Positions 7,508-61,966 of a stretch of DNA of 64,000 bases are shown here, piece after piece. Below the pieces are notes generated by a model. The model did not search any database and had not been told where the DNA came from. It was given only the letters and a program-made list of their open reading frames with translations. Numbering within the stretch: the stretch's first letter is position 1; each line of letters starts with the position of its first letter. The translations under genes were made by a program, and so were the position numbers. Origin of the DNA: a virus; IMG/VR virus record IMGVR_UViG_3300045988_184160, positions 1-64,000 of that record; one strand, given 5' to 3'.

Positions 7508-7520
7508 GGCGAATACTTGT

Positions 7521-8053: not shown

Positions 8054-8464
8054 CTATAGGTAATCCTCAATAACCACATAGTTGTACCGAGAATCGATCT
8101 CTCCACCGTTCAATATAGCGTCTACATCAAAATCACGAGCAGATAGTTTACACACCTCAGGCTTATTCAACGGGAACCGATACCACCCACCTGACCTATT
8201 GGTGCCCCGTGGGCGATCCAGCAGGTGCCCACCATCTACCATAGTTATGTAAATGGGGATAATATCAGACCCGTACCCGTTAGCTTTTACTTTCAGCTCA
8301 CCGTTGTGACTTATAAATTTCATGTTTTCGTGCGTATCAGTAAACCGCACATATATATTCCCCTGAGATTTATCTACTCGCTGCGCTAGGTCATGCATGG
8401 TTTTCAGCTCAGCTAGGTCGTATGCCCCTGGTTGTAGGGCGAACTTGTAGGTTCCGGTGGGCAT
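8054..8464 (-). CDS. hypothetical protein, tandem paralogue 2
   Basis: Track ORF is 8054..8509. ATG at 8464 has GGGAGAA upstream. Shared blocks: YKFALQPGAY, IYVRFT, IPIYITM, GWYRFPL, FDVDAIL. Confidence 0.7.
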   Translation of the reverse strand: MPTGTYKFALQPGAYDLAELKTMHDLAQRVDKSQGNIYVRFTDTHENMKFISHNGELKVKANGYGSDIIPIYITMVDGGHLLDRPRGTNRSGGWYRFPLNKPEVCKLSARDFDVDAILNGGEIDSRYNYVVIEDYL

Positions 8465-10709: not shown

Positions 10710-11531
10710 ATGCAGGATAGTAGTACTAGTTGGGTTGATAACCCAATAGCTGTTTTTGATTTAGAGACAACAGGGTTGAATGTTAGGGAAGACCGTATTG
10801 TCACTGCGTCTTTCGGTGTCCTGTCGCCTTCTGGTGAGGTGATGTGTGACGCTACAGGTGTGCCGATCATACGGGATTGGTTGATCAACCCTGGGGTTAT
10901 TATCCCTAAACAGGCTTCGGATATTCATGGTGTGACGACGCTCCGCGCGCAGAAAGAAGGTATGGAGGCGTCTGAGGGTGTTGCCCAGGTTGCGGCAATG
11001 GTTGGTTGGGCGTTGCGGCATGGCATCCCTGTGGTTGGGTACAATGTGCGGTATGATTTGTCGATGCTGGTTCACGAGACTGAGCGTCACCCAGTTGAAC
11101 GGCATGAGGTTGAACCGCTCCCCGAACTATTCCCCATCCTTGACCCGTACCCGATCTTCAAACACCTCTACAAATACAGGAAAGGCAGCAAAACCCTAAC
11201 GAAAGCCGCCGATTTCTACGGCATCAACCTAGACAACGCCCACAGCTCCCACGAAGACGCCCTAGCCGCTGGTCGGGTTCTGCAAGCTATCGGTGCGCAG
11301 GACCCGGTTTTCAGGAACATGACAGCTGGTGAGCTGCACGAAACCATTATTGGGTTGTACGATGAGCAGGACAGGGACTACCAGGAGTACCTGATGCGTA
11401 ACCACGTGGAGAAACAGACACCGCTACGGGTTGTGGAACGCGGGTTCCCAACATATCTGCCAGAGTCACAGCAGTACACGCTCACCGAGTTACGCGCATT
11501 GTGCCTAGAGAGAAGCACACCGCCTAGCTAG
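10710..11531 (+). CDS. DEDDh 3'-5' exonuclease (DnaQ/epsilon-like)
   Basis: Exo I AVFDLETTGL, Exo II VVGYNVRYDLSML, Exo III HSSHEDALAAGRV. Starts 7 nt after the dnaN stop. Confidence 0.85.
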   Translation: MQDSSTSWVDNPIAVFDLETTGLNVREDRIVTASFGVLSPSGEVMCDATGVPIIRDWLINPGVIIPKQASDIHGVTTLRAQKEGMEASEGVAQVAAMVGWALRHGIPVVGYNVRYDLSMLVHETERHPVERHEVEPLPELFPILDPYPIFKHLYKYRKGSKTLTKAADFYGINLDNAHSSHEDALAAGRVLQAIGAQDPVFRNMTAGELHETIIGLYDEQDRDYQEYLMRNHVEKQTPLRVVERGFPTYLPESQQYTLTELRALCLERSTPPS

Positions 11532-13089: not shown

Positions 13090-13098
13090 TGCACACCC

Positions 13099-15754: not shown

Positions 15755-15955
15755 TCCAGCTAGTAGTTTCGGGGCGCAGGTGAGGATGATCGTTCCGGGT
15801 TGGGTGAGTTTCCGTAGCGCCGTGTATGTGTTGACTGTTATGGCTCCGCTCCTAGCTGTGTTTATTTCCCTCCCATCATAAAGGGAAACCGCCAGCTGGT
15901 GCTAGAATTACAGTCGTAACCCATAAAAACAAGCAAATACCCAAAGGAAAAACCA

Positions 15956-16531
15956 ATGCGTGAACCAGCACACCCCCAGAAACGGTGGGGCGCACCGAAA
16001 GTCACCATCAGAACAAACCAGCAGCACCAAAAAATATGGGGGATCGAATACTCGGACCCTGCCACAGGCACAGTATTCACCGCAGTAGAATCCGCGTCCG
16101 CCCTCCCAGTGTTCATAAACACACCCGAAAAGCTCGGGGAGTACTGGGGTGCTTTCACCCGCTACAACCCCGCAACGCACCAGACCATCAACGAAATACA
16201 CGAGCTCACCAAGCGCCCTGACCCGCAGCGGCTCAACGAGCTGCACTATGACCTGCTCACCAGCTTCGGGCGTTTCCTCACCACCGCAGCAACAGCTATA
16301 AACCACCCAGAGAACCCCCAAGACAAGGGCGGGCACCGGAGAATCGACTACGAGGATGTACAAAGAAACTTCCTGCACGCCTTCCGAAACAAGGGTACAC
16401 AAGAACCTCTCCCCCGCACCCCCGCACCAGTGAGAGTTTCCCACACTGACGCATACGACAGGTACGCCGCGTACACGATTGAAGGGAAACGGTATTTACC
16501 TGGGCACAGGGTGCAACCCATGTTCGACTAG
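15956..16531 (+). CDS. hypothetical protein (191 aa)
   Basis: ATG with AAGGAAAAA RBS. Preferred over the antisense ORF 15908..16444. Confidence 0.6.
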   Translation: MREPAHPQKRWGAPKVTIRTNQQHQKIWGIEYSDPATGTVFTAVESASALPVFINTPEKLGEYWGAFTRYNPATHQTINEIHELTKRPDPQRLNELHYDLLTSFGRFLTTAATAINHPENPQDKGGHRRIDYEDVQRNFLHAFRNKGTQEPLPRTPAPVRVSHTDAYDRYAAYTIEGKRYLPGHRVQPMFD

Positions 16532-19400: not shown

Positions 19401-19473
19401 AGCCCCCTACCGGGTTTGAACCGGTGGCCTTCGGTTTACAAGACCGACGCTCTGCCAGCTGAGCTAAGGAGGC
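19401..19473 (-). tRNA. tRNA-Thr (TGT)
   Basis: Minus strand: acceptor GCCTCCT/AGGGGGC (one G-U), D arm TAGCTCAGCTGGCAGAGC, anticodon stem TCGGT/ACCGA, loop CTTGTAA, T arm ACCGG-TTCAAAC-CCGGT. Confidence 0.9.
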
Positions 19474-19627
19474 GGGGTGTCCACCAGTCGGGGTTGGTGT
19501 GGAGTGCCTTGTGGCTGGTGGACTTCTCATAGTTTAGCAGGTGGTTTCTTGGTTTCGCAAATCGTGGGGTGGGTGGGGATGTTAGAATTTTAGTGTATTG
19601 TTCTAATTGTTTTGGAGGATGGTTTAT

Positions 19628-19906
19628 ATGTTGCCTGATTTATCGTTGCTGATGTGGCTTGCGTGGGGTGTTGGGGGTGCCCTGATTGCGTTGATTATTG
19701 TTATTGTCCGGTTGGCTTATAAGGGTAAGCTCACGTCTGGTAATAAGACGCATGATAGGTTGGAGAAGAGCACCCCGTATTTGGTGAATGTTCTTAAGGT
19801 TTTTGCTTTACTGCGTATCCCGTTAGGGTTTGTCTTTAGGGGGTTGAAGTCCGTGTTTGGATTTTTCCGGTCTTCGAAACCGAGTGGGGGGTCAGCTCGG
19901 GGGTAG
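19628..19906 (+). CDS. small membrane protein (92 aa)
   Basis: ATG at 19628 with GGAGGA 8 nt upstream. One clear TM segment, LLMWLAWGVGGALIALIIVIV. Confidence 0.6.
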   Translation: MLPDLSLLMWLAWGVGGALIALIIVIVRLAYKGKLTSGNKTHDRLEKSTPYLVNVLKVFALLRIPLGFVFRGLKSVFGFFRSSKPSGGSARG

Positions 19907-20052
19907 TTTACTCGGTTCCATCTTTTCACATGGTGGGTTTACGGCGTCTTATAACACTGTAAACCCACCTATTTTCGTGTAATCACCCCTATTCGTGTTA
20001 CACTGGTTTTCAGATAAAACAACACAACCCAGACGAGGTAAACCATACAACC

Positions 20053-21132
20053 ATGAGCAATTACAGCAAACCACGCACCACTAAAAAAGAGGTAGAAGAC
20101 CTGCAAAAATATGTGGGCATATACCTAGATAACTGCCATAAGCACGGGGTTGATCCGACTTGGGATGGGCTGATCAGGCAAGCTTCTATCGTGGTAAAAA
20201 TCCCCGAATCAAGAATCCGAAGCGATAAGCTCCTGCAGGAGGCGCTTATTCGGGGTGTCGAAATATACTATCGGATGAACAAAGTCCACAACAGGCTAAA
20301 CCCGCCACCGAAACCCAAGAAAAAACCAGCACCAAAACCAGCCACACAAGAAAAGCTTGTTCCCACCAAGGAACAAAAACCAGAAACACAGAAGCAACAG
20401 CTTCCCAAACCAGAAACCAAGAAGGAAGAAGGAAAACAAATGGTACAGCCCGAAAAGAACGACACCCAGGCCCTCAAAAACGCGCAGCAGTCTATCCAAG
20501 CATTCGTGGACTCCAAACCTGACGGGTTTACCCGCGCGGCTTACCGTGAGTTCGTCAAGAACCGTGCTAATGGTGCGGAGCCGGTTCTTAGTGAGGGGAA
20601 GCTCCGCAATTTCTTCTCGACGTGGGGTGAGGCTGCTGCTTACGCTAAGAAGTATGAGGAGCAGGGTGCTACTAAGCAGGAGAAGAAGGCGGCACAGGAG
20701 AAGGCTCGCCCTGCCGCTAAGAAGCCCGTGAACAAGCCTGCGGTAGAGAAACCTGCACCGAAGAAGCCCGCCAAGAAGCAGGATAAGCCCGCATCGAAGG
20801 CAACTAAACCCACCCAGCCCAAGGGCACCACCACCGAACCGCTATCAGAGTCCGTTGCGGAAGCCTTCAAGAACATGCGCACCGAAGGCTCCCCACTTCA
20901 CAAGTTCGCACAGTTTACCGCTGATCTGTTTGCGGGTGGGTACCTTCTCCGTGATCTTCTGTTGGTCTTCGAGCAGAACGAGATCAGTGAGGATAAGGGC
21001 TCCTGGGCGCGGTACGACGCGATCATCAAGCACCTAGATGAAAACCCGCAGGATGCGCTTCAGCTTAAGCTGCTGCTCGCTGAGGTTCTGCATGATGTCT
21101 CTCTGCAGGGTTCTCTCAACGCATCCAAGTAG
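20053..21132 (+). CDS. lysine/proline/alanine-rich protein (PAKK-type low-complexity repeats)
   Basis: PPPKPKKKPAPKPATQEK... and AAKKPVNKPAVEKPAPKKPAKKQDKPASKATKP tracts flanked by ordered-looking N- and C-terminal parts. Confidence 0.7.
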   Translation: MSNYSKPRTTKKEVEDLQKYVGIYLDNCHKHGVDPTWDGLIRQASIVVKIPESRIRSDKLLQEALIRGVEIYYRMNKVHNRLNPPPKPKKKPAPKPATQEKLVPTKEQKPETQKQQLPKPETKKEEGKQMVQPEKNDTQALKNAQQSIQAFVDSKPDGFTRAAYREFVKNRANGAEPVLSEGKLRNFFSTWGEAAAYAKKYEEQGATKQEKKAAQEKARPAAKKPVNKPAVEKPAPKKPAKKQDKPASKATKPTQPKGTTTEPLSESVAEAFKNMRTEGSPLHKFAQFTADLFAGGYLLRDLLLVFEQNEISEDKGSWARYDAIIKHLDENPQDALQLKLLLAEVLHDVSLQGSLNASK

Positions 21133-23913: not shown

Positions 23914-23986
23914 GCCCCCGTAGCTCAGGGGATAGAGCACTTCTCTCCTAAAGAAGGTGTCGGACGTTCGAATCGTCTCGGGGGCA
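23914..23986 (+). tRNA. tRNA-Arg (CCT)
   Basis: Acceptor GCCCCCG/CGGGGGC, D arm TAGCTCAGGGGATAGAGC, anticodon stem CTTCT/AGAAG, loop CTCCTAA, T arm GGACG-TTCGAAT-CGTCT. Confidence 0.9.
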
Positions 23987-23996
23987 CTTGTGATAA

Positions 23997-43265: not shown

Positions 43266-43281
43266 CGCACCCCACCTTTCC

Positions 43282-44049: not shown

Positions 44050-44829
44050 ATGTCCACGATAGATAAATTCACACAAAAAACAGTTTTCAGGCCCGAGCAG
44101 GATTATTTCTACCGTCTACCCCCACCAGTTTTCTCTGATGATGTTGCGGTTTTCATGGGCGGTGTCCTGCAGCATAAGGACGACCTCACCGCTTATGACC
44201 GTGAGCTTCTTCGAGGGTACCAGCCGGATAGTGAGCCTGATGAGCCGGTTTTGACGATTGTGAAGGACGGTGACGGGTATTTGTGGTCTTTACTGAAAAT
44301 CTTGATGGTTCCGGTGTTGTCCACGCTACTGTTTCCCGCGTTGAGGTGGGTTGGGGTGGATTTGACTGTTGGTCCGCTTCTGTGGGTCCTGTCGCTGTGT
44401 TTCATCTGGGTTGTGACTGGGTTGTATGCTCTATGGTTTTTGCAGGGGTATACGCAGAAGCATCTTGCGTCGCTTTATGTTTATTCTGTGGCTGAGGATG
44501 CGGAGGTTATGGAGCGCCGGCGGTTCCTTATTGGTGAGTGTGAGCGGTTGAGTAAGGAAATTGAGGGGTTGGAGTATCAGCGGGATAAGGTTCTTGAGGT
44601 GCGTAAGGCTGAGTTGGAGGCTTTGCCTATTAGTGTGGTGACTGTTGGTTCTCGCGTGGTGAGTAGGGACGCGGCGGTTGCTGATGTTGTGGGTGAGATT
44701 GGGCGTGTTGGTGCTGAGATTGAGGTTTTGAGGGGTAGGTTGTCGGGGTTGCAGGATTCGTTGGCGTATTCTGCTTTGGCGTTTTTGTCGTCTGATGAGG
44801 GGAGCCGTAGAGCGTATCTTGCGAAGTGA
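44050..44829 (+). CDS. membrane protein with C-terminal coiled coil
   Basis: Track start is GTG 44041, with an ATG at 44050. TM helices (LLKILMVPVLSTLLFPAL, LLWVLSLCFIWVVTGLYALWFL), then a heptad-like region. Confidence 0.6.
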   Translation: MSTIDKFTQKTVFRPEQDYFYRLPPPVFSDDVAVFMGGVLQHKDDLTAYDRELLRGYQPDSEPDEPVLTIVKDGDGYLWSLLKILMVPVLSTLLFPALRWVGVDLTVGPLLWVLSLCFIWVVTGLYALWFLQGYTQKHLASLYVYSVAEDAEVMERRRFLIGECERLSKEIEGLEYQRDKVLEVRKAELEALPISVVTVGSRVVSRDAAVADVVGEIGRVGAEIEVLRGRLSGLQDSLAYSALAFLSSDEGSRRAYLAK

Positions 44830-44843
44830 GTTAGCGACCTTTT

Positions 44844-44885
44844 GGGGTGTCACCAGTGTTTATTCATGGTGGCACCCCTTATTTT
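44844..44885 (+). terminator. rho-independent terminator
   Basis: GGGGTGTCACCA / TGGTGGCACCCC (one G-U) followed by TTATTTT. Confidence 0.7.
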
Positions 44886-48015: not shown

Positions 48016-48934
48016 CACACTCAGCAGGGAACTAACAACCACCCTCAACAACCTACGCGCCACCCAAGCAGCATACGCCGAGAAACTAAACACCCACCAC
48101 ACCAACATCAGCACCTACAAGCAAATCCAACGGGACAGGGCATACAAGCGTGAAGTGACCCGTGTACTCAGTGCAGCGAAGCAGGGGCTTCACAAGGTGC
48201 AGGAGCAGACGGGGGTTGAGGTACGGGAGTTCGTGACCGATGTTATCAATAAAGCTATCCAGAACCTCTTCCCCAAAGAGAACCTGCGCATCTCCATTGT
48301 TGCCAACGACGAGAAACCAACCAAAACCAGGGCACGCAAGACCAGTAGCACACCCGCGATGGTTTACAAGCGACTAGATCTTGAGGTTGCTGGCACTGAC
48401 GGTGAGCCTATGAATGTCGCTATCCAGGTTGGTTCTGGGTTGCAGGACCTTATTTCTTTCCTGTACCGTGTCGCCTTGATTTCTGTGTCGTCGGGCAGGA
48501 AGCTTCTTGTGAGTGACGAGCTGCTGCACGGTTTGGCGGTTGATCGTTTCAAAGATATTGTGGGTATCCTGGATTTGTTCACTGAGGAAGGTTTTCAGTT
48601 CATCATCATTGAGCACGGGCTGGACCCGTCTCTGTGGGGTGGTAACGCCCGTGTCCTTGAGACGGTCAGGTCTAATGGGTGCTCAAGTTTGGTTGATGTG
48701 ACTGGGGAGTATTCGGGTGGCAACAGGGTTCTTGAAGAGCTCAAAGAATCTGTTGAGAATGCAGTGAAACAGGCTAAGGAGGCGCATGAAGCTAACCCCG
48801 TTGAAGATTCTGAGCCACTAGAAACTATAACCACCACAACTAAACCCGATAAGCAAGCAAAAACAAAGGCAGATAAAGAAAACCCTGCTCAAGAAGAATT
48901 AAACATGGCACCACCCAACATGTTTCAAGACTAA
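48008..48934 (+). CDS. SbcC/Rad50/SMC-type ATPase, C-terminal half only (signature-like motif, Walker B, H-loop)
   Basis: ATG at 48008 (track start is 47951). About 60-aa helical region, then QVGSGLQDLISFLYRVAL (signature-like), KLLVSDELLHG (Walker B/D-loop), FQFIIIEHG (H-loop). No Walker A. Confidence 0.7.
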   Translation: MNNTLSRELTTTLNNLRATQAAYAEKLNTHHTNISTYKQIQRDRAYKREVTRVLSAAKQGLHKVQEQTGVEVREFVTDVINKAIQNLFPKENLRISIVANDEKPTKTRARKTSSTPAMVYKRLDLEVAGTDGEPMNVAIQVGSGLQDLISFLYRVALISVSSGRKLLVSDELLHGLAVDRFKDIVGILDLFTEEGFQFIIIEHGLDPSLWGGNARVLETVRSNGCSSLVDVTGEYSGGNRVLEELKESVENAVKQAKEAHEANPVEDSEPLETITTTTKPDKQAKTKADKENPAQEELNMAPPNMFQD

Positions 48935-54000: not shown

Positions 54001-55569
54001 TCAAAATCTGGTAACATCGCCCAGTTTGTTGTTGAAGCCTTAGGTTACAAGGGTACTTGGCGTGATTTCCTCCTAGATTTCCGTCCACAATGGATTTTTA
54101 GTGCGGAAGACATTATAAATGCGCTCGACTCAAACGATGCGATAACCCTACCTGTCTCATACACTGTTGATGGTGCAACCACCAAAGCAGAACTTATTAA
54201 GGAGATCAGGACTCTTCACCCTGACTTTTTTGGTGACGAGAACAGTGGTTTCGGTTCATCTGCTTCTGGTGAGGGGTCTGAGGTAGATGGTGGTATGGTG
54301 TATATCGCTGGTTATGGGATGTCCCAGGATGGTGTGAAAGTTGGGGGTTCCACTAATCCTGTGGGTATTGAGGATACCGAGCTCTCCGAGGACATGGAGG
54401 AGCCCGAAAATAGCAACTACGGCGATAATGATATAGAAGACGTATCATACACCAAACCAGACCATGAACCAGAGGAAGACACGGCAGAAGAACCAGAGGT
54501 TCATGCTGAAACCATACCGGAAGAGCCGATAGTGGAAGATATTGCCGCACCCATCTACGAGAACGCCAAGAACAGCATCAACGCCGATCCTGACGAGTGG
54601 GAAACCGCCAACCAACCCAGCGAGGAATACACGGAGACCGCGCCTCTGGAACCTGTACCCCAGTATTCGGACGGCTCAACAACCGACGAGTACGGGGACA
54701 GGGTTTTTGGTGCATCCACTCGCGCCCCAGAAGGGTATGCTGGCTCTGATACTGATTACCGCGAACGGGCTCAGCAGTCCCAGTCTTTCAAGAATCCGCC
54801 TAAGCACTCTAAAGGGTTTGACCTGCCGCCTATGGGGTTCGACCCGTACAGCATTGAGTCTTTCGACAAAGTGTATGACACGGTTACTGACGCTATTATT
54901 CGTGCCGCACTGGGTAAGAATAGTCAGGGTATTATCGCCTTGTCCATTAAAGATGGGGATGTGATCGTGAACGGGCTCCAAGTGCAGGTGAACACTCAAC
55001 CTGGTGACCTGATGTCGATGCAGGATTCTTTACGGAACCAGCTCACGACTGGGAAAATTGGTGGGCTTATCAACTGGAAGAAGCTCATTACATACATGCG
55101 CTCGGTTGAGGCTTTGGAGTTCTCCGATCTTCCTGATGCTAGGGCGGCTGCTAAAGCAATGCTCAAGGATAAGGATATTTCGGTTGAGCATTTCTTTACC
55201 CGCGTGAGGTCTCTGCAGCTTTTGACGCTGGTTACGAAGACTTACACGAGGCAGGATTATCGGGAGCAGCTTGAGTCTACACCGCAGTTCTATAACCGGA
55301 CCGCTTTTGAGAGGGTTGAGAAGAAGTTCCGGGAGGGTACACTCTTTGGTGCTTCGAAGAGTTTCGCTTATGCGCGTGATCGTTTCAGGCGTAAGGGCGG
55401 AATAAATAAGGTTGTTGGTGTGGGTGCTGGTGCTTTTGGCGCTTTACTGAGGTCTGTTGCTGCGGCTTCTAGGCTGTCGAAAGGGACTGCTAATTTGGGT
55501 GCGCGTATTGCTGTCGCCAATAGGATGGATCGGAGGTCTAGGAGTTATTCTGAGGGGCGTGATATTTAG
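51016..55569 (+). CDS. giant protein (1517 aa) with FtsK/HerA-like P-loop NTPase segment
   Basis: HLVLAASRSGKGVWTSNILAACIISGRPIFYLDNKPD parallels the FtsK/TraB-type Walker A region (..GxTGSGKS..N..I.S.....P.....IDPK) but has GKG. Walker B-like GIVGVFDEMAIF. Acidic low-complexity stretch around aa 1115-1190. Confidence 0.6.
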   Translation: MSENNTNENLRKLGVNLIQQALQEDKLKDPNNTALSPNNVRGIEFLGADGIKIVEHVSGGYSKSISSAMDDFDLNATNALTKEDIRSIFGSRKYGNLEYVHVADNMQIMGATGKPAAAGIAAVLKTITSSNGAPWYGRLHQINGEEIPDTAGWENHKSLEPEAYAFDAKSQLGKKLNIETTPAPETETTVPEAEKPEQEKTPQELEVEQRVAKINKHFKTQINGAIKFLLQKYKMMFASGFDLVQPAGVPFPDDTGTVILRTIKDGKLTYAGDDPVAKGYFREIEKLYENITDASGIKVAKARSHHEIINLAIQGVDVDPNTKLGIPGRNLRVTLPYKMLEYAYGTQGAISQTRTLTDEERIKYTPSSINAWEEYSTHVIRKDLNTLFSSLGYTALVNEKMQDVYDDNRRSTRKEKDKASKIISTHIETLKCMLASTIIIPIFQQIDNETIAVKARVLDNYTDWSKIRQDQIRRAIKDTDVELDNSDVKSYPPVYDGESFSEYRIDLNTTLANAEPVFAYKALQLLLAKGEKLTFENAPLGVDTDGNIVRNGTHFSLSTYLSHLVLAASRSGKGVWTSNILAACIISGRPIFYLDNKPDIGDKVADASKINGSPTAFVVNGGNLNPQSRDSGTHFFGNWNDANSWINTDHIPSYLRSLNIDTRTYNGTVGTLVYLRGMLLFLGIIAARIVYGQGEVYEKLGGKTGIVGVFDEMAIFSKEFLALLKELGKKYPNLKYWQAYQQDPNIEGTKPPAESYWSYLLVKAISETATRIFNLNNAGGQNGENRVSDIFIISQDFFALSDGGNSTPGERAEIARRPGQISSVSMNATDKKGNTGALIPIHQDIIFNMLMALGGDAYLGVHNEVNHLGHKNPNGKTSNYINTQARYFGRIAPYPVDGVRETRAAISSEDQKMTLYKPGLLVADSSVENGEGYNAKYTYFLDNLSSYVKAAGADLPDIISRNEDPIRKGTFHRATALSEYLEMAGVSREETAKRLSKSGNIAQFVVEALGYKGTWRDFLLDFRPQWIFSAEDIINALDSNDAITLPVSYTVDGATTKAELIKEIRTLHPDFFGDENSGFGSSASGEGSEVDGGMVYIAGYGMSQDGVKVGGSTNPVGIEDTELSEDMEEPENSNYGDNDIEDVSYTKPDHEPEEDTAEEPEVHAETIPEEPIVEDIAAPIYENAKNSINADPDEWETANQPSEEYTETAPLEPVPQYSDGSTTDEYGDRVFGASTRAPEGYAGSDTDYRERAQQSQSFKNPPKHSKGFDLPPMGFDPYSIESFDKVYDTVTDAIIRAALGKNSQGIIALSIKDGDVIVNGLQVQVNTQPGDLMSMQDSLRNQLTTGKIGGLINWKKLITYMRSVEALEFSDLPDARAAAKAMLKDKDISVEHFFTRVRSLQLLTLVTKTYTRQDYREQLESTPQFYNRTAFERVEKKFREGTLFGASKSFAYARDRFRRKGGINKVVGVGAGAFGALLRSVAAASRLSKGTANLGARIAVANRMDRRSRSYSEGRDI

Positions 55570-55589
55570 GCTTCTTGGCTTTTTTGGAT

Positions 55590-55621
55590 GGGGTTTACCT
55601 ATTTGGTAGGCCCCATTTTTT
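55590..55621 (+). terminator. rho-independent terminator (+ strand specific)
   Basis: GGGGTTTACC / GGTAGGCCCC (two G-U pairs valid only on + RNA) followed by ATTTTTT. Confidence 0.7.
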
Positions 55622-55869
55622 ATGCTGCCTGGTTTTTTGGTGGGGTTTTGGGTGTGGTGTTTTTGTTTTATGGGTGTGGTGGGGTTTGTTACCCAATATA
55701 ACTGTCCCCCTAAGTTGGGGGTAACATTATGATACTACTACTTTGTTTTAGTGTTCCTGGGACGCCCCACAACCGCACGAACACGGTGCCCAGCCAAAAA
55801 AGAACAATAAACACGCCCCACCCAGTAAAATATAAACTATATAACACACCAAAAAAGGGGGACACGAAA

Positions 55870-56622
55870 ATGGAAGAAAAAAACGAAAAAAAACAAACCT
55901 ACACCATACTCAAAATACGGGAACTAATCACCCAAATACCCCACACCCCCAACAACCAGAACACCCTAAAACGCCTCGAAACCATCCAACAATTCATCCT
56001 TAATAACACCATAAAAGGATCCCTATCCTCAGCAGATGAAGTAGCAAAAACCCTATTCCAAAACCCAGAAACACCCATCACAGAAATACTGCTCAGCAAC
56101 AAAACCACCCTCACCAGAGACAACTTTTACAAGGCAATCGGTAGGTATGACAAGCATTTCATCCGCGCCGCAGGCGGAAACTTTATCGAAAGCTTCATCT
56201 CCGCACACCAAAAATCAGTACAAGGAGACCCCGAAGCTTTCAAAAACATCGACAGGGTAATAAGCTCACTACCCCAAATGTTTAGGCCCGACAAAGAAGA
56301 CTTCGCACCAGAATCACTGAAACACCTGTTTTACGAGGTTCCCACCAACCCCAATCTGACACTGGAAGACTGTGTGCCGGAGCTTCTTTTCTTTGCCAAG
56401 CACAGCAAAATGATGCTAACCGCTGTCGCAGAGGGCCTAAATCAGGAGAAAATGATGTATATTTACCGGCTACTGCGCGGGGTAAATGTGCCTGAAAAGA
56501 GAACTACCACTGGTGAACGCCTTGAATTTAGTGATGAAGAGGTGGGTACGGCGCGTAGAATCATTAGTCGTTACGCAGAGAATAACGCGGATAAGGAGAT
56601 TGAGGAACTTAATGGACGCTAA
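55870..56622 (+). CDS. hypothetical protein (250 aa)
   Basis: ATG at 55870 with AGGGGGA RBS. The track ORF extension back to 55729 is probably non-coding A+C-rich leader. Confidence 0.65.
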   Translation: MEEKNEKKQTYTILKIRELITQIPHTPNNQNTLKRLETIQQFILNNTIKGSLSSADEVAKTLFQNPETPITEILLSNKTTLTRDNFYKAIGRYDKHFIRAAGGNFIESFISAHQKSVQGDPEAFKNIDRVISSLPQMFRPDKEDFAPESLKHLFYEVPTNPNLTLEDCVPELLFFAKHSKMMLTAVAEGLNQEKMMYIYRLLRGVNVPEKRTTTGERLEFSDEEVGTARRIISRYAENNADKEIEELNGR

Positions 56623-57703
56623 ACGATATATTGACGCGGGGGATATTACGCTAGAGAGCGATAAAGATTACCTTTTCTGGTGCACAGTTAAAGCTTATTT
56701 AGGTACGAAATCGGTTGATTTTTTCAGTAAAAATAATGGGCTTGATAATGCACCAAATAGTGTGATTCTTGAGGTGAGCCAAGAAGTTTCTGACCCTAAC
56801 ATTATTTTTCTTTTAGAAGACGCACCCAATAATTACTTACCACACCTTTATCTAAGTGAAATACAGGACAGGAACCGTGCGGGGGAGGATATTCCGGTAG
56901 GTTTCTCTGATTACCTCTTCCAGGAATACACCTCCACCTACAGGTGGCTAATGGCGCGGGCGGCAGGTAATCACCTACTAGGCGACGATTCTGCCTATAA
57001 CCTGAAAATTATTCTCGACGAAGATAAGGATGTTGCACAGATTCTAAGGATGTACCTTATTTCTGGCGCAAAGAATCTGCATATTAACCTTGAAGATGAC
57101 AGCTCCGCGAATATTGCTTTGCACCTACTTATGGCTGGCGAGTTCACTAAAGGCGACTGGGTTTCACCTGCCCAGAAGAAGGAATATATGAAGGAAAACC
57201 TGCGGGTTCCTGGGTTTTATCAGGTGGTTGAGCGGCATTCTAGGGACGGTGAGCTGCTGTCCAAGCCTTTGTCACGGCTTCTGGTTTATGTTGATTCCCT
57301 TGAGAACACTGGGTTTTCGGGGCTGGTTATTGATGAGCCGTTTAGTTTAGCTGAGCGTCGCCGCATGTTTAGCAAGGCTGACTCTGATGTTCAGCATCTT
57401 TATAGGGGTCTTCTTGAGCCGTCGGATACCTATCGTAGGGTGTCGTTTTCTTTTGTGGACACTGGGGTTTTGGGGTGCATGAATGTGCTTGAGGATCGTT
57501 ATATGTTGAGTAGATTGGAGGGTTCTGCTGAGCGTAGGGTGTCTTGTGTGGGTGCTGATGGGGGGCTTGTTGAAGTAGTGGATAGTTTTTCTGCTTCTGA
57601 GTTTGTGTATTGGTGCTTGAGGGAGCGGGATTCTTCGTTGGATTTGTCGTCTTTGAGTTCTTCGGCGTGGGATCGACTGAATGGTGGCATTATTAAGGGG
57701 TAA
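56612..57703 (+). CDS. hypothetical protein (363 aa)
   Basis: ATG at 56612 overlaps the previous stop. No motif recognised. Its stop codon overlaps the first TGATGTCAT repeat. Confidence 0.65.
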   Translation: MDAKRYIDAGDITLESDKDYLFWCTVKAYLGTKSVDFFSKNNGLDNAPNSVILEVSQEVSDPNIIFLLEDAPNNYLPHLYLSEIQDRNRAGEDIPVGFSDYLFQEYTSTYRWLMARAAGNHLLGDDSAYNLKIILDEDKDVAQILRMYLISGAKNLHINLEDDSSANIALHLLMAGEFTKGDWVSPAQKKEYMKENLRVPGFYQVVERHSRDGELLSKPLSRLLVYVDSLENTGFSGLVIDEPFSLAERRRMFSKADSDVQHLYRGLLEPSDTYRRVSFSFVDTGVLGCMNVLEDRYMLSRLEGSAERRVSCVGADGGLVEVVDSFSASEFVYWCLRERDSSLDLSSLSSSAWDRLNGGIIKG

Positions 57704-57969
57704 TGATGTCATTACTGGGGCACATGATTGCATAATCCTAGCTAGGTGACTGCATTTTCAGGAATAATGGTGGCATATTCACATGGTATGCCACCATTTT
57801 TATAGGTTGATGATGTCATTACCAACTTCCTTGATGTCATATTTGGATAGCATGATGTCATTTTTTACTATCAACACCATCACTCTAGGCACCTCTTGAT
57901 GTCACAATAACAGCCCATGATGTCATAATAAGCGGGTGATGGTATCATTTTAGAGTCCAATGATGTCAT
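57704..57969 (+). repeat. iteron-like array: 8 direct copies of TGATGTCAT on a ~21-bp lattice
   Basis: Copies start at 57704, 57811, 57832, 57853, 57897 (TGATGTCAC), 57918, 57937 (variant TGATGGTATCAT) and 57961. All are in the same orientation. Confidence 0.9.
57766..57801 (+). terminator. rho-independent terminator inside the repeat region
   Basis: Perfect 12-bp stem AATGGTGGCATA / TATGCCACCATT with T-run. Confidence 0.8.
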
Positions 57970-57991
57970 TTTAGAGCTAGAGAAGGGCAAA

Positions 57992-60079
57992 ATGACCCAC
58001 CAGAACACCACTGCACCGCAATCCGCACTGCTCGCGTTAGGTCAATACCGCCCAAAAAACCAAGAAAACGAAATATTCGAAACACTAAAACGTGAAGGAT
58101 ACGACCTCACCGAACTACAACCAGCCGTCGAACAAGACGGAAACAAACTCGTCATCACCTGCGCAGGCTCCGGTAAAACCACAATGCTCTGCATCAACAT
58201 CCTCAACGACCTCAAAAACGGCGAATACCAAACCCAAGCAACCACCAAAAACGGGATACCCATCACCCAAACAACCAAAGTATGGGTAGGAACCTTCTCA
58301 GCATCAGGCGCAAAATCACTCAAAAACTCCCTCAACAACTACGCCCGCATGCTAGACATCAACAACAGCAGAGACAACATCACCATCTCAACCCTGCACG
58401 CAGAATTTAAAAAAGTCATCGAAGAAGCAGGAGACCAGCTCCTCGGACGAGAAGGCACCAGCCTTAACATGATCGACGACCAAACCAACGAAAAAATCCT
58501 AAAGAAAGTCCTCACCAAAAAACACGAAATACACCTACAACAAGAAGACTTCAAAAAACTCTACACCGCCCTCATGTACACGCGGGCATCCCTTAAACCC
58601 GACAAAAAATACTCCCACGAAGGGTACAGGGTACTCAAAGACAAAGAAACCCCTGAAACAATCGAAGCGATCCTGGACAACTGGGCGCAAGCAAGAGAAC
58701 ACTGGAACGACGTGGGCGGGTACGACTTTGAGGACTTGCAGGACATCCTCTACGTGCGGCTTGCATACCCCGAGAGTTTCCCAGAATACGACTGGCAGAA
58801 AGCAATCAGTGGACGCTACACCCGCATCTTCATGGACGAATTTCAGGACACCAGTGACAAGCAGCTGTACATTTTGAAGCACTACGCAACCGACCCTGGG
58901 TTCAAGAAAATCGTTGCTGTGGGTGACGACGACCAGATGATTTACTCTTGGCGTGGCTCCTCCACAACGGTTATCACCAAGGACTTCAAAGAGCATTTCA
59001 ACCCCACCGTGGTTGCGCTCTCCAAAAACCGCAGGTGCGCTCGCGGTGTCCTCATGCCCGTTATCCCCTCAATCGAGAGGAACACGGATCGGTACGAGAA
59101 ACTGATTACCAGTGATATTGAGGGCGGCAGGACAGAGCTCGCAGGGTACAGCTCATTCGACGCTATGGGGCAAGACCTGATCCGCCGAGCCCAAGCAGAT
59201 GTGAGGGTTGGGCGTAGCGTCGCTGTGCTCTGCAGGGATAACCGGAGCGGTATCATACCAGCCTTGTTTTTCCAGTCTGCTATCAGTAGCAAAGGTACGG
59301 GCGTGAATTTCAGGATTTCTGGTTTCGGCATGTCCCTCGCATCTAGGACGGGTAAGGACGCGATATCTGTTTTGTCACTTATCGACCAGACGGGGGAAGA
59401 GCTGTACCGCCCATTGTCGAACCTTGTTGGTGGTTACATGCGTTCCCCTGAGGTGGGTGCGGTGGTTGATCGGTGCCGTGAGACTGGGCAGACTGTTTGG
59501 GAGCTCATGGATTCTGAGCCTGCGGGGTTCAAGTACACTGCTCTTAAACTGTACGGCAAGCTCCTGCCTTTACGGGAAGCTAAAGAGAAAAGCTCTTCTG
59601 ACACTGATTTTGCGCTCGCTATCTGTGACTATTTCATGCACGACATTTGGGGTAGCGCCACCAGTGACAAGCAGTTGCAGCTGCAGGCTTTATGCCAGGC
59701 TTTGAAGTCTCTTATCGCGGCTTCGGGTAGCTACCGTGAGGCGGTTAAAACATTGTATGGGCTTGGGTCTGATATTCGTGAGAGGGTGGATAACCTTGGT
59801 GCCCCGATTAGTGTAGCTACTGTCCATGATTTCAAGGGTAAGGAAGCAGATTCGGTTTATTTGTGGGATGATACGCTGGGTGTTTTCCCGAAGGATGATG
59901 CTTTGGAGCTTGAAGAAGAGAGGCGTCTGCACTATATTGCGTGCACCCGTGCTAGGGATAATCTGGTGATTATGTACCGTGACGGTGAGGGTTTCGGGCC
60001 TGGGCGTTTTGTGCGTGAGATGGATTTATCTCTCATGGAGCGGCGTGACCGTGACGTTAGTGGTTTAACGTTGCTCTAG
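57992..60079 (+). CDS. UvrD/Rep/PcrA-like superfamily 1 DNA helicase
   Basis: Motif I VITCAGSGKTTML, II IFMDEFQDTS, III VGDDDQMIYSWRGS, IV LSKNRRCA, V VATVHDFKGKEADSVYL, VI EERRLHYIACTRARDNLVI. Confidence 0.9.
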   Translation: MTHQNTTAPQSALLALGQYRPKNQENEIFETLKREGYDLTELQPAVEQDGNKLVITCAGSGKTTMLCINILNDLKNGEYQTQATTKNGIPITQTTKVWVGTFSASGAKSLKNSLNNYARMLDINNSRDNITISTLHAEFKKVIEEAGDQLLGREGTSLNMIDDQTNEKILKKVLTKKHEIHLQQEDFKKLYTALMYTRASLKPDKKYSHEGYRVLKDKETPETIEAILDNWAQAREHWNDVGGYDFEDLQDILYVRLAYPESFPEYDWQKAISGRYTRIFMDEFQDTSDKQLYILKHYATDPGFKKIVAVGDDDQMIYSWRGSSTTVITKDFKEHFNPTVVALSKNRRCARGVLMPVIPSIERNTDRYEKLITSDIEGGRTELAGYSSFDAMGQDLIRRAQADVRVGRSVAVLCRDNRSGIIPALFFQSAISSKGTGVNFRISGFGMSLASRTGKDAISVLSLIDQTGEELYRPLSNLVGGYMRSPEVGAVVDRCRETGQTVWELMDSEPAGFKYTALKLYGKLLPLREAKEKSSSDTDFALAICDYFMHDIWGSATSDKQLQLQALCQALKSLIAASGSYREAVKTLYGLGSDIRERVDNLGAPISVATVHDFKGKEADSVYLWDDTLGVFPKDDALELEEERRLHYIACTRARDNLVIMYRDGEGFGPGRFVREMDLSLMERRDRDVSGLTLL

Positions 60080-60127
60080 CTATACTTTTTTCTACTAGCA
60101 GTATTTTTGTTGAGAATTTAAGGACTG

Positions 60128-61966
60128 GTGAGCACAATTTTGGAAGAAGAATACCCAGATTATGAGGATGAGTACGTATATGATGACTACCCAGATGATT
60201 ATGATGAAGAAGAAGAAGAGGAATACGACAGCGCCAATGAAGAAGCGCCAGGCGCAACAGCCTTCATCCAACAGCAAAACCATGTAGCATCAGCAGACAA
60301 AAAATACTCTTCACCCAAACCAGAAGAACACGACTTCCCGCCCCTAAAAGGCACAGACATCGTTTCCCGAATCCTCGACAAAACCGAGACAGGGAAAGCG
60401 CTCGTCATCTTCGACCCCGACATTGATGGTGCCATAGCTGGGCTATTCTTCTGCTGGGAACTACATAAACGCGGCATCACGTTCAAAACCTACGTTAACC
60501 CTGGGCGTGAACACGGGTTCCTACTCGGGGAGAAAGAAGCTAAAACACTCGCAGGCGGCACAGTGTTCGCGGGGGATTTCACGGTAACACGTGAACAGGT
60601 GAAAATGCTCACCAGCAACAATGTTTCCATCGTGTGTATCGACCACCACGAGTTTGAGGCTGGGGCTAAGGACACTGCGTTCATTCACTACACTGACGGG
60701 GAACCAGTCGTGGGTGGCACCCCACCAGAGGGGTGCACTGCTGAGGGTGTGGTAGTGAACACCCAGTATGAGTGGGAGCCGGAAGGTAACCGGTTCCAGT
60801 CCGGGGCGGGCGCGGTGTGGGAGGTACTAAGGAGGATCAGCCCAACCATGTATGACACATCCGACGCTAAAGCACTCGTCGGGTGGACTCTGCTCTCAGA
60901 TATCCGTGACATATCCGCACCTGCAGCGAAGATTTTCCTGTGGGAGCTTTTCAACCAGCCATACGATGGGTGGCTCAAAAAGTATGCGGATATCCTTCCC
61001 CGTAACCCTTTCGAGCCTTTCGGGGTGCCCCGCGCTTCTAGGCAGTGGGTGGACTATAGCCTGTCACCTAAAATAAACTCCCTGTTCAGGTTCGGGTTGG
61101 AACGTGAAGCTGTCGCATTCACACTAGGGGGCTTGTACCCTTATGCTGATGCGCAAAAAGACCAGCGTAAACTAGTTGACCTTCTGCAGGAGATCGCGCA
61201 TGTGAAAGATTACGGTGCGTTGACTGTGGTGGCTATCCCCAGGTTCCACCCTAAGATTCCGTCTGATGTGAGGAAACACATCTCAAACTTTGTGGGGCTT
61301 GTAGCATCAAACCACACGGAGAAAGGTAAAGGGTGCCTCGGTTTCGTGTATGACGGGTTCGGTAACGAGTTGGAGGACGGCACCCCTTACCACCAGTTAG
61401 ATGGGGTGGGGCGCGCATCGTTCCGTTCAAACATCACAGGCTACCCGTACCGCGAGAATTTCAGAGGACAGGGGGTTGATGCTAGGGGGCATAGTATGGC
61501 TTTCGGTATCAAAAACCTGAAACCATCTAATGATTTGTTTGAGAACCTGAACAGTATTTGCGTGGAAGCTAAAACCAAGTACCCAAATATTCTGAAAGTA
61601 AAAGTTCTCAAAACCCTAGACTGGGATACCCTACGTGACATAGCCGAACACAACGACTACTCCCCCACAAAAGACCAGATCCTAGTGAAATACAACCCGT
61701 GGGCAAACACTGAGGAGGAAGTGCTAATACCCGCAGATGATGCATCCAAGTTCCATGCGGAACACAACATTCTGCACCGCTACGATGATGGTGAATCATC
61801 CTCCAAGATGCCGTGGGTAACTGAGGATCAGTCCGAGAAATTCATTAAATACCGTGTGGAAGGGATTCAGATTCTTTCCTACGGTGAGAAGTATTCACCA
61901 GTGGACAGGTTCTTACAGGTCTTCACTGTAAAAAACACTCTCGGGGTAACCTGCAAGGACTTTTAG
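60128..61966 (+). CDS. DHH/DHHA1-family phosphoesterase (RecJ-like) with polyacidic N-terminus
   Basis: GTG start. DHH motifs IFDPDIDGAIAG, FAGDFTV, VCIDHHEF. DHHA1-like ARGHSMAFGI. The first ~45 aa are EEEYPDYEDEYVYDDYPDDYDEEEEEEYD. Confidence 0.75.
   Translation: MSTILEEEYPDYEDEYVYDDYPDDYDEEEEEEYDSANEEAPGATAFIQQQNHVASADKKYSSPKPEEHDFPPLKGTDIVSRILDKTETGKALVIFDPDIDGAIAGLFFCWELHKRGITFKTYVNPGREHGFLLGEKEAKTLAGGTVFAGDFTVTREQVKMLTSNNVSIVCIDHHEFEAGAKDTAFIHYTDGEPVVGGTPPEGCTAEGVVVNTQYEWEPEGNRFQSGAGAVWEVLRRISPTMYDTSDAKALVGWTLLSDIRDISAPAAKIFLWELFNQPYDGWLKKYADILPRNPFEPFGVPRASRQWVDYSLSPKINSLFRFGLEREAVAFTLGGLYPYADAQKDQRKLVDLLQEIAHVKDYGALTVVAIPRFHPKIPSDVRKHISNFVGLVASNHTEKGKGCLGFVYDGFGNELEDGTPYHQLDGVGRASFRSNITGYPYRENFRGQGVDARGHSMAFGIKNLKPSNDLFENLNSICVEAKTKYPNILKVKVLKTLDWDTLRDIAEHNDYSPTKDQILVKYNPWANTEEEVLIPADDASKFHAEHNILHRYDDGESSSKMPWVTEDQSEKFIKYRVEGIQILSYGEKYSPVDRFLQVFTVKNTLGVTCKDF

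What the first reader, a model, noticed from the sequence alone, without database searches (positions are those of the whole stretch)
55729..60079. Kilobase-scale alternation of A+C-rich and G+T-rich blocks on one strand, even within single ORFs
By hand count, G+T is 22/120 (18%) at 55861-55980 and 90/120 (75%) at 57481-57600, both inside + strand genes. Within the single helicase ORF it is 32/120 (27%) at 58201-58320 and 77/120 (64%) at 59401-59520. The pattern recurs across the window. A+C-rich stretches include ~1900-3300, 4660-4900, 5120-5450, 7145-7430, 47820-48200 and 57992-58900. G+T-rich stretches include 5500-5700, 6350-6700, 10400-11100, 44250-44830, 46400-47150, 48380-48720 and 56900-57700. 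Many genes run A+C-rich at the 5' end to G+T-rich at the 3' end, including the minus-strand genes 7521..7952 and 8054..8464 on their own coding strand. Some block edges ignore gene borders (e.g. 48008), and the tnpB at 21297 and folA show the opposite polarity. A coupled GC- and AT-skew flipping every ~0.5-1 kb is not what replication-strand bias produces. It also explains the many long spurious antisense ORFs, because a G+T-rich antisense strand lacks the A needed for stop codons. Possible causes are strand-specific deamination-type mutation (C to T and A to G) tied to transcription or single-strandedness, selection for unstructured A/C-only mRNA 5' regions, or modular amino-acid composition.
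Basis: seen in the sequence. Interest (0 to 1): 0.65.

Follow-up and report, generated by a model that had tools for sequence, protein, structure and literature searches.

The report
Strand-composition dyads at transcription-unit boundaries
An uncultured ~250-kb gut phage-like element carries sharp switches from G+T-rich to A+C-rich sequence at some gene-unit boundaries; they sit mostly at silent sites, and recent mutations erode them, so something other than local mutation pressure (probably weak selection) keeps them in place.

Summary
All four hand counts are exact. 17% of the window lies in extreme A+C or G+T blocks, against 1.3% in shuffles. The signal is strongest at third codon positions (helicase: G+T 0.13 → 0.74; z = 23.6 against synonymous shuffles).

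The recurring unit is a junction, not a general gene gradient. A G+T-rich arm abuts an A+C-rich arm, and this reads the same on both strands. Junctions are enriched at strong terminators. The window-wide metagene is nearly flat, and 7 genes show the opposite polarity.

Amino-acid composition, replication skew, a decaying relic and degenerate palindromes are rejected. Recombination hotspots get no support. The junctions sit at the same positions in two clades whose silent sites are ~90-95% saturated. More distant syntenic relatives lack them.

Polarised recent substitutions occur at similar per-site rates inside and outside blocks. In the blocks they run against the local alphabet (87 vs 30; replicated 73 vs 41). 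A steady local mutation bias therefore cannot maintain the blocks. What remains is a fixation bias, most likely weak selection on nucleic-acid composition near transcript ends, or rare hypermutation bursts.

The function is unknown. Reduced RNA folding explains the A+C arms only. I rate this a new variant of local strand asymmetry, of moderately high interest.

The parts
55305..55761 (.). G+T-rich arm (G+T 0.70). It covers the 3' end of the 1517-aa gene (stop at 55569), the terminator hairpin 55586-55618 with its T-run, a G+T-rich spacer 55619-55697, the conserved hairpin CCCCC-TAAGTT-GGGGG at 55706-55721, and a -10-like TATGAT at 55728-55733.
   Evidence: HMM segment; terminator scan; hairpin and -10-like element conserved between clades A and B.
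55762..56326 (.). A+C-rich arm (G+T 0.27). It starts in the non-coding leader ~108 nt before the ATG at 55870 and covers the first ~150 codons of gene 55870-56622. This is the sharpest junction in the window (step -0.51 at 55762).
   Evidence: gene start from public gene calls; conserved leader block ~55822-55860.
55870..57703 (+). Two-gene operon (55870-56622 and 56612-57703, overlapping by 11 nt; no family match). G+T rises from 0.23 to 0.72 across both genes, with a ~600-nt plateau near 0.50. There is no reset at the internal gene junction.
57201..57720 (.). G+T-rich arm (G+T 0.70; third positions 0.88) at the 3' end of the operon. It ends ~40 nt before the terminator hairpin.
57721..57987 (.). 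Spacer of ordinary composition between the two arms. It holds the terminator hairpin 57763-57801 with its T-run and about 8 TGATGTCAT repeats (57702-57970).
57988..58661 (.). A+C-rich arm (G+T 0.28; third positions 0.13). It starts 4 nt before the helicase ATG and covers the conserved N-terminal UvrD helicase domain.
57992..60079 (+). UvrD-family helicase gene. Third-position G+T goes 0.13 -> 0.46 -> 0.74 (slope z = 13.1, block variance z = 23.6 against synonymous shuffles).
59753..60185 (.). G+T-leaning arm (0.63) at the helicase 3' end, abutting a short A+C block at 60186-60391. That block is partly driven by amino-acid content, being the acidic N-terminus of the RecJ-like DHH gene 60128-61966.
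19487..20109 (.). Another abutting junction (19952/19953) at a terminator hairpin, upstream of gene 20053-21132.
15763..16429 (.). Abutting junction (15867/15868) in a divergent intergenic region.
44247..44872 (.). G+T-rich arm (0.72; third positions up to 0.94). It ends at a terminator hairpin and is followed by mildly A+C-rich sequence.
48427..48920 (.). Abutting junction (48766/48767) inside gene 47951-48934, ~230 nt before the next gene start.
10959..11262 (.). Abutting junction (11112/11113) in the middle of the epsilon-like exonuclease gene. Unexplained.
7432..7665 (.). Abutting junction (7534/7535) between convergent gene ends.

Best explanation
The alternation is built from strand-symmetric composition dyads. 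A G+T-rich arm of 0.1-0.6 kb is followed directly, or after a short regulatory spacer, by an A+C-rich arm of 0.1-0.7 kb. A dyad reads the same on either strand. The dyads sit at a subset (about a quarter) of transcription-unit boundaries in a clade of uncultured ~240-260-kb gut phage-like elements. In tandem units this looks like a 5' A+C to 3' G+T gradient.

Shown: the signal lies at silent sites and in non-coding leaders. It is position-conserved across clades with saturated silent sites. Present-day substitutions do not generate it; they erode it.

Inferred: the dyads are held by a fixation bias, most likely weak selection on the base composition of the transcript or transcribed DNA near unit ends.

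My best guess at function is speculative. It is composition-encoded control of nascent nucleic-acid structure in tightly packed units. At the start of a unit the RNA would be C-rich, G-poor and unable to pair with itself, which keeps it open for ribosome loading and unfavourable for RNA-DNA hybrids. In the last few hundred bases before an intrinsic terminator the RNA would be G/U-rich with strong positive GC skew, which would favour pausing or hybrid formation and so aid termination.
For: - Silent-site location. Helicase third-position G+T runs 0.13 to 0.74. 4-fold sites are ~88-91% within the local alphabet, and leaders and spacers are equally biased.
- Excess over synonymous shuffles in 28 of 51 genes.
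- Junction anatomy. 7 of 10 G+T-to-A+C transitions abut (median gap 0), whereas the reverse order has a median gap of 1519 nt. The step statistic is skewed at -0.57 (CI -1.00 to -0.12), with 24 sharp drops and 4 sharp rises.
- Anchoring on units. Large steps occur at 4 of 16 strong terminators, 2 of 50 other gene ends (p = .027) and 7% of random positions. G+T arms end at terminator hairpins and A+C arms start near the promoter or ATG. One pair of arms is separated by a 267-nt spacer of ordinary composition. There is no reset at the operon-internal gene junction.
- Persistence. The positions are the same in clade A (9 sequences) and clade B (68% aa identity). Their 4-fold p-distance is .65-.71, against .73-.75 for independent draws.
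- Not mutation-driven. Singleton per-site rates are similar in all block types. Changes away from versus towards the local alphabet are 58:22 and 29:8 in clade A and 48:29 and 25:12 in clade B, while neutral blocks are balanced at 212:217 and 374:358. The G+T equilibrium predicted from recent changes is ~.47-.53, against .25 and .81 observed.
- In G+T blocks, older polymorphisms at 4-fold sites shift to the ratio expected under selection (predicted .77, observed .82).
- A+C arms are far less folded than shuffles.
Against: - The function is not demonstrated.
- Reduced RNA folding explains only the A+C arms. G+T arms fold as much as or more than shuffles, and whole-gene folding is unchanged.
- The window-wide metagenes at unit starts and at terminators are not significant.
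- Seven genes, including thyA, folA and tnpB, show the opposite polarity.
- Two junctions are intragenic.
- In A+C blocks the older polymorphism class still shows away >> towards (34:7), so the decline with age expected under selection is not seen there.
- The deficit of fixed differences vanished after controlling for gene.
- The G+T spacer 55619-55697 lies beyond a terminator T-run.
- Promoters, transcript ends and the host are all unverified.
Confidence: 0.42

Rival explanations
1. Episodic, strand-specific hypermutation. Rare events, such as a deaminase or damage acting on DNA that is single-stranded near unit boundaries, rewrite one strand by C>T and A>G. The blocks then decay slowly between events, which would explain why recent changes run against them.
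For: - The composition coupling (G with T, A with C) is exactly that of deamination of one strand.
- Away >> towards the local alphabet is seen in both young and older classes in A+C blocks, as expected for relaxation after a burst.
- Clade B has lineage-specific clusters of same-direction transitions towards the local alphabet, for example 5 C>T plus 2 A>G within 120 nt in L045.
- The amplitude of the A+C arms differs between clades A and B.
Against: - No restoring cluster was found among 1613 singletons in the nine clade-A genomes. Runs of same-strand transitions there go against the blocks or lie in neutral sequence.
- Bursts would have to recur at the same positions in both clades over a time in which silent sites became saturated.
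- No deaminase was detected in the window.
- The 267-nt spacer of ordinary composition between the arms argues against a process centred on a break or nick.
- The polarity of the clade-B clusters is unresolved.
Confidence: 0.2
2. A DNA-level function with two-fold symmetry. The strand whose 3' end points to the junction is G+T-rich on both arms. This could suit recombinase loading on 3' tails, which is known to prefer G+T-rich DNA. It could also provide structure-free A+C-rich tracks for helicases or lagging-strand templates if replication or recombination starts at the junctions.
For: - The dyad is strand-symmetric, and G+T arms are usually paired with an A+C arm (8 of 13).
- The element encodes end-processing enzymes: SbcCD-like, RecJ-like, a UvrD helicase and an exonuclease.
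- One G+T stretch extends beyond a terminator.
Against: - Four-gamete failures are not enriched at junctions (.16 vs .165).
- Arms stop at terminators and start at promoters or ATGs, and can be 267 nt apart.
- Many A+C blocks are solitary (9 A+C-to-A+C neighbour pairs).
- The sign is opposite to that expected at a replication origin, where the leading strand is normally G+T-rich.
Confidence: 0.13
3. A continuous local mutation bias tied to transcription or to single-strandedness, as the first reader's leading idea proposed and as in animal mitochondrial DNA.
For: The coupled skews resemble the A+C-rich and G+T-rich strands of vertebrate mitochondrial DNA (PMC1794132). The blocks are anchored on transcription units.
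Against: - For any stationary process the flux between the two alphabets must balance. It does not: 87 vs 30 in clade A and 73 vs 41 in clade B.
- Per-site rate ratios are ~1.15, against the 3.0-4.2 required.
- Synonymous divergence is not raised in blocks.
- The coding strand is A+C-rich at 5' ends, which is the wrong sign for non-template-strand deamination.
Confidence: 0.07
4. A translational cause. A/C-ending codons are read by exact pairing with G34/U34 anticodons, and G/U-ending codons by wobble, so the blocks would encode a gradient of decoding speed.
For: Third positions carry the strongest signal. The same logic is discussed for mitochondrial codon usage (PMC1794132).
Against: - Non-coding leaders and spacers are as biased as 4-fold sites.
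- First and second codon positions shift as well.
- The operon-internal gene does not reset.
- A fast-to-slow gradient runs against the usual ramp model (my own knowledge).
Confidence: 0.05
5. A by-product of amino-acid composition (disordered linkers, hydrophobic segments), or an assembly artefact.
For: A few blocks are driven by amino-acid content. Examples are the acidic linker of the giant protein around 54400 and the acidic N-terminus of the DHH protein at 60186-60391.
Against: - Synonymous shuffles keep the protein unchanged yet lose the pattern.
- 4-fold sites and non-coding DNA are the most biased.
- The pattern is present in more than 13 independent assemblies from different samples and assemblers.
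Confidence: 0.03

Closest known systems
[quoted passage not shown] 2013, PMC3787257)
   Same: A local strand asymmetry sits at the ends of transcription units, not at replichore scale. Positive GC skew occurs at 3' ends in closely packed genes. The skew is read as a functional signal encoded in composition, not in a motif.
   Different: Here the 5' arm has strongly negative GC skew (about -0.5), where the human case is positive. An equally strong AT skew is coupled to it. The magnitude is far larger, with silent sites ~90% in a two-letter alphabet. The setting is a prokaryotic virus-like element. R-loops were not tested.
A+C-rich versus G+T-rich strand asymmetry of animal mitochondrial DNA (summarised in PMC1794132)
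   Same: The same pairing of bases (A with C, G with T), strongest at third codon positions, and strong enough to shift amino-acid usage.
   Different: In mitochondria one sign holds for the whole genome and the cause is a strand-biased mutation spectrum. Here the sign flips every 0.5-2 kb, and the recent mutation spectrum is not biased in the blocks.
Replication-associated GC/keto skew of bacterial and phage genomes
   Same: G and T excess coupled on one strand.
   Different: Replication skew switches once or twice per replicon and is weak. This window has 33 extreme blocks in 64 kb with skews of 0.4-0.6, and distant relatives of the same element show only a uniform mild bias.
Reduced mRNA folding at gene starts through codon choice (established for bacteria; my own knowledge)
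   Same: The A+C arms abolish local folding of the leader and early coding region.
   Different: The known effect covers roughly the first 10-20 codons of most genes. Here it spans ~200 codons, occurs at a minority of units, and comes with a mirror-image G+T arm upstream.
Weak selection on synonymous sites detected as an excess of unpreferred changes among young variants (Akashi-type tests; universal AT-biased mutation against higher genomic GC; my own knowledge)
   Same: The same logic and the same signature. Recent changes run against the standing composition, which is nevertheless conserved over long times.
   Different: The preferred state here is not a codon set or GC content. It is a position-dependent two-letter alphabet that switches at junctions.

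Membership tests
Replication strand asymmetry | Sign changes only at the origin and terminus, at replichore scale | tested here: not met
   33 extreme blocks and 10 G+T-to-A+C switches in 64 kb.
Replication strand asymmetry | Modest skew shared by related replicons | tested here: not met
   Skews are about 0.4-0.6 in the blocks. Distant syntenic relatives have no blocks.
Mitochondrial-type single-strand deamination gradient | Coupled enrichment of G and T on one strand, strongest at silent sites | tested here: met
Mitochondrial-type single-strand deamination gradient | The substitution spectrum itself is strand-biased, so that composition is at mutational equilibrium | tested here: not met
   Away vs towards the local alphabet is 87:30 (clade A) and 73:41 (clade B). 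Rate ratios are ~1.15 against 3.0-4.2 needed.
Transcription-associated mutational asymmetry | Excess of G+T on the non-template strand along the whole unit | tested here: not met
   The coding strand is A+C-rich (G+T 0.23-0.29) over the first ~600 nt of the strong units.
R-loop-type GC skew at gene ends | GC skew localised at unit ends, positive before terminators in closely spaced genes | tested here: met
   G+T arms have G .34-.38 vs C .13-.15 and end at terminator hairpins. They are associated with strong terminators.
R-loop-type GC skew at gene ends | Positive GC skew downstream of the promoter | tested here: not met
   The 5' arms have C .32 vs G .11-.15.
R-loop-type GC skew at gene ends | RNA-DNA hybrids actually form there | not testable with these tools
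   Needs hybrid mapping in infected cells.
5' mRNA structure avoidance | Weaker folding near the start than synonymous controls | tested here: met
   Helicase -14 to -17 vs about -25 kcal/mol per 120 nt. The first operon gene -3 to -10 vs -6 to -12.
5' mRNA structure avoidance | Confined to the first tens of codons and general across genes | tested here: not met
   It spans ~200 codons, and the metagene over 34 unit starts is nearly flat.
Selection on silent sites (Akashi-type) | Excess of changes away from the favoured state among young variants, with balance in unbiased sequence | tested here: met
Selection on silent sites (Akashi-type) | The excess declines with variant age or frequency | tested here: inconclusive
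   Seen in G+T blocks at 4-fold sites (11:8, predicted equilibrium .77 vs .82 observed). Not seen in A+C blocks (15:5; 34:7 over all synonymous sites).
Degenerate long inverted repeat / palindrome | Sequence complementarity across the junction beyond what composition gives | tested here: not met
   z about 0 at 6 of 7 junctions and z = 3.4 at one.

The most novel reading that the evidence does not exclude
These elements use a composition-encoded, motif-free cis signal. It is a strand-symmetric [G+T | A+C] dyad written into hundreds of silent sites on either side of selected transcription-unit boundaries. Weak selection maintains it against a uniform mutation spectrum, and it insulates neighbouring units by shaping nascent RNA or R-loop behaviour (termination upstream, open and hybrid-averse RNA downstream). 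This would be a new class of regulatory feature in prokaryotic viruses, and an unusually clear case of selection on kilobase-scale strand composition.
Probability: 0.25. Interest if true: 0.8.

Novelty: new variant of a known kind. Interest (0 to 1): 0.62.

Why it matters
Strand-composition skews are normally read as passive footprints of replication or transcription mutagenesis, and are used that way to find origins. Here a very strong skew flips at kilobase scale, and recent substitutions do not produce it. It is nevertheless conserved in position over saturating divergence.

If selection is confirmed, base composition over hundreds of silent sites can itself be a functional signal at gene-unit boundaries in a large phage-like element. 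That would matter for gene finding, for codon-usage models, for recoding and synthetic-genome design, and for understanding termination and insulation in densely packed viral genomes.

It is also a practical warning. Composition-based tools such as skew plots, gene callers and horizontal-transfer detectors will misbehave on these elements.

Tried and rejected
- Megablast of the region against the plasmid and phage collections found no match. Protein-level searches found only distant relatives. The genome-collection scan gave only two probably mis-binned Treponema MAG contigs at 36-37% identity, so the host is unknown.
- A fixed-priming Okazaki model, and an origin at the centre of each unit, were rejected on sign and shape. 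They predict sharp rises; sharp drops are what is seen.
- True inverted repeats and specific 5'-3' complementarity were rejected.
- G-quadruplex motifs are not enriched at junctions.
- The conserved leader motif is not a recurrent promoter; it occurs once in the window.
- Recombination hotspots at junctions are not supported.
- Lower 4-fold divergence in blocks, and a deficit of fixed differences in blocks, both disappeared after controlling for gene identity. I do not use them.
- My first terminator finder was too strict, with 7 hits. The relaxed version gave a non-significant metagene with a heavy tail.
- Polarising the clade-B mutation clusters with clade A failed because the sites are saturated.
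- Palindrome and restriction-site avoidance: palindromes are only 30-45% rarer in blocks, and the blocks cover only 17% of the DNA, so this is not a convincing driver.

Full report
**What the DNA is.**
The window is part of a 157,880-bp metagenome contig (ENA ERZ772952). Near-identical and related contigs of 243-264 kb come from many human-gut-style samples, and one of them is listed in IMG/VR as a viral contig.

The window encodes:
- a beta clamp, an epsilon-like exonuclease, ThyA and FolA;
- SbcCD-like and RecJ-like nucleases and a UvrD helicase;
- a ParM-like protein and a phage-tail lysozyme;
- seven tRNAs and several insertion elements.

Most other proteins match no family. There are no close cultured relatives, and the host is unknown.

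Yes. The four hand counts are exact. A+C blocks have A .39-.46 and C .32. G+T blocks have G .34-.38 and T .34-.38. GC content stays roughly constant.

A three-state HMM puts 17% of the window in extreme states, against 1.3% in chunk shuffles. Shuffling synonymous codons within each gene keeps the protein and the gene's codon usage. Against that control, third-position block variance is at z>3 in 28 of 51 genes, and at z = 23.6 in the helicase.

Helicase third-position G+T is 0.13, 0.46 and 0.74 in successive thirds. The last third of the preceding gene reaches 0.88. 4-fold sites are about 88-91% within the local alphabet. Non-coding leader and spacer DNA is just as biased. Amino-acid composition is therefore not the cause, although first and second codon positions are dragged along.

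**What the pattern actually is.**
A unit that reads [A+C][G+T] is its own reverse complement in composition. 'Polarity along the gene' therefore cannot be separated from 'rise inside a unit, drop at its borders'.

Without using gene calls, the extreme blocks are ordered non-randomly. Ten G+T-to-A+C transitions have a median gap of 0, and seven of them abut directly. Ten A+C-to-G+T transitions have a median gap of 1519 nt. The step statistic is negatively skewed (-0.57, CI -1.00 to -0.12), with 24 sharp drops against 4 sharp rises.

The element is thus a [G+T | A+C] junction. Junctions occur at tandem (55761, 19952, 57720/57988), convergent (7534) and divergent (15867) gene boundaries, and twice inside genes (11112, 48766).

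G+T arms end at terminator hairpins. A+C arms begin near a promoter-like element or at the ATG. At 57721-57987 a 267-nt spacer of ordinary composition lies between the two arms. It holds a terminator and an array of TGATGTCAT repeats. The two-gene operon 55870-57703 shows one continuous rise with no reset at its internal junction.

Large steps are found at 4 of 16 strong terminators. They occur at 2 of 50 other gene ends (p = .027) and at 7% of random positions.

The rule is not general, however. Metagenes over 34 unit starts and over 28 terminators are nearly flat. In addition, 7 genes have the opposite, weaker polarity, including the real genes thyA, folA and tnpB.

**Comparative evidence.**
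The same junctions are present in all nine clade-A genomes (88-97% nucleotide identity). They are also present, more weakly, in four clade-B genomes (68-69% helicase identity, GC 41% against 49%).

Between the two clades, 4-fold sites differ at .65-.71, where independent draws would give .73-.75. Silent sites have therefore been almost fully randomised while the blocks stayed in place. Almost every substitution changes alphabet class, so a relic would relax with a half-life of roughly 0.35 substitutions per site (my inference). The blocks must be continuously restored.

More distant syntenic relatives have a uniformly mildly G+T-rich coding strand and essentially no blocks (L008-L011, L018, L047; GC 29-41% where measured). 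The feature is clade-specific.

**Mutation or selection?**
For any stationary process, the flux from A/C to G/T states must equal the reverse flux. I polarised changes by parsimony, using singletons among nine sequences and clade-A2 polymorphisms rooted by A1.

| Site class | Away from local alphabet | Towards local alphabet |
|---|---|---|
| A+C blocks, singletons | 58 | 22 |
| A+C blocks, older polymorphisms | 34 | 7 |
| G+T blocks, singletons | 29 | 8 |
| G+T blocks, older polymorphisms | 21 | 10 |
| Clade B, A+C blocks | 48 | 29 |
| Clade B, G+T blocks | 25 | 12 |

Neutral stretches are balanced, at 212:217 in clade A and 374:358 in clade B.

Per-site rates of the four transitions are similar in all block types (0.05-0.13). 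The ratio of 'towards' to 'away' rates is 1.15 (CI .70-1.88) where 3.0 is needed, and 1.16 (CI .53-2.5) where 4.2 is needed (my calculation from the counts).

Across all 1613 clade-A singletons, the share of transitions that are C>T or A>G falls smoothly with local G+T. It is .83 in the most A+C-rich DNA and .17 in the most G+T-rich. Mutation simply follows what is available.

Synonymous divergence is not raised in blocks once gene identity is controlled (.146 vs .174, n.s.). A steady local mutation bias, whether deamination or anything else, is therefore rejected.

What remains is a fixation bias (selection) or rare restoring bursts. In favour of selection, at 4-fold sites in G+T blocks the older class moves to the ratio that would maintain the observed composition. 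The population also recombines freely, which makes weak selection efficient (my inference). Against a clean selection story, A+C blocks show no such decline with age. In favour of bursts, clade B has a few lineage-specific clusters of same-direction transitions, but their polarity cannot be resolved. Clade A shows no restoring cluster.

**What might it do?**
Compared with synonymous shuffles, A+C arms are almost structure-free as RNA. G+T arms fold as much or more, and whole-gene folding is unchanged. 'Unstructured 5' mRNA' therefore explains one arm only.

The arms are not degenerate palindromes, and the 5' and 3' arms of a unit are not specifically complementary. Junctions are not recombination hotspots. 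Palindromes and stop codons are only modestly depleted, and antisense ORFs are not concentrated in blocks.

The arms are anchored on transcript ends, carry very large GC skews of opposite sign, and are associated with strong terminators in a tightly packed genome. On that basis I favour a role in shaping nascent RNA and RNA-DNA hybrid behaviour at unit boundaries. This is loosely analogous to the terminal GC skew of closely spaced human genes (PMC3787257). It remains an inference, not a result.

**Verdict.**
- Amino-acid composition is rejected.
- Ongoing deamination-type mutation is not supported.
- Selection-like maintenance is supported, but not specifically, or only, for unstructured 5' mRNA.
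- The claimed general gene polarity and the antisense-ORF explanation do not hold.

To my knowledge, and in the literature searches I could run, a kilobase-scale, junction-centred, two-letter-alphabet asymmetry has not been described in a prokaryotic element. The nearest known things are mitochondrial strand asymmetry (PMC1794132) and GC skew at human gene ends (PMC3787257). I class it as a new variant of local strand-compositional asymmetry, with moderately high interest.

Noticed in passing
window 57702-57970: About eight copies of TGATGTCAT (near-palindromic TGAYRTCA) lie between the operon terminator and the helicase start. Clade B carries TGRTNTCAC variants at the same places, so a binding-site array is co-evolving with its protein. 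It could be an operator, iterons, or a centromere for the nearby ParM-like gene.
   Followed up: partly
window 55706-55721 and ~55822-55860: The hairpin CCCCC-TAAGTT-GGGGG and a ~35-nt leader block (GGTAAAATAKAAACTATATAACACACCWAAAAAGGGGGA) are conserved between clades whose silent sites are saturated. The leader motif occurs only once in the window.
   Followed up: partly
window 6734-6810, 8693-8995, 12148-12223, 19400-19473(-), 23914-23987: Seven scattered tRNA genes: Met-CAU, Phe-GAA, Leu-UAA, Ser-CGA, Pro-UGG, Thr-UGU and Arg-CCU. Several read codons typical of the two alphabets (ACA, CCA; UUY, UUR, UCG, AGG). The Ser tRNA was not confirmed by Rfam.
   Followed up: no
window 51016-55569 and 62076-63512: Within clade A, the giant 1517-aa protein and the ParM-like protein are far more divergent than their neighbours. 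Their aa identity is .81 and .75 and their 4-fold divergence ~.46-.51, against ~.95 and ~.18 for neighbours. This suggests diversifying selection or tracts imported from other lineages.
   Followed up: no
window 17620-19191, 21297-22826(-), 41660-43902(-): Insertion elements: a transposase, a TnpB gene, and an IS607-like serine recombinase next to a TnpB-like gene that may be split.
   Followed up: no
window 12403-13974(-): The thyA-folA pair lies on the minus strand. Each gene shows the opposite, weaker polarity (third-position G+T ~.65-.70 at the 5' end to ~.40 at the 3' end).
   Followed up: partly
clade A vs clade B loci (L001 vs L005): GC content is 49% in clade A, 41% in clade B and 29-41% in distant relatives. 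At 4-fold sites clade A differs from B by T>C in A+C blocks, by A>G in G+T blocks, and by both in neutral DNA. The GC shift has respected the local alphabets.
   Followed up: partly
window 19607-19906: An ORF with third-position G+T of 0.94/0.88/0.74. It may be no more than the G+T arm of the 19952 junction, and its coding status is unverified.
   Followed up: no
L045 (L005 coordinates 417-536); L005 10327-10465: Lineage-specific clusters of same-direction transitions towards the local alphabet: 5 C>T plus 2 A>G within 120 nt in L045, and 5 T>C within 140 nt in L005. They could be hypermutation events or imported tracts. Their polarity is unresolved.
   Followed up: partly
L001 20709-22088 (just downstream of the window): A PP2C-type phosphatase gene and a Ser/Thr protein kinase gene lie next to each other. 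They are conserved in clades A and B.
   Followed up: no
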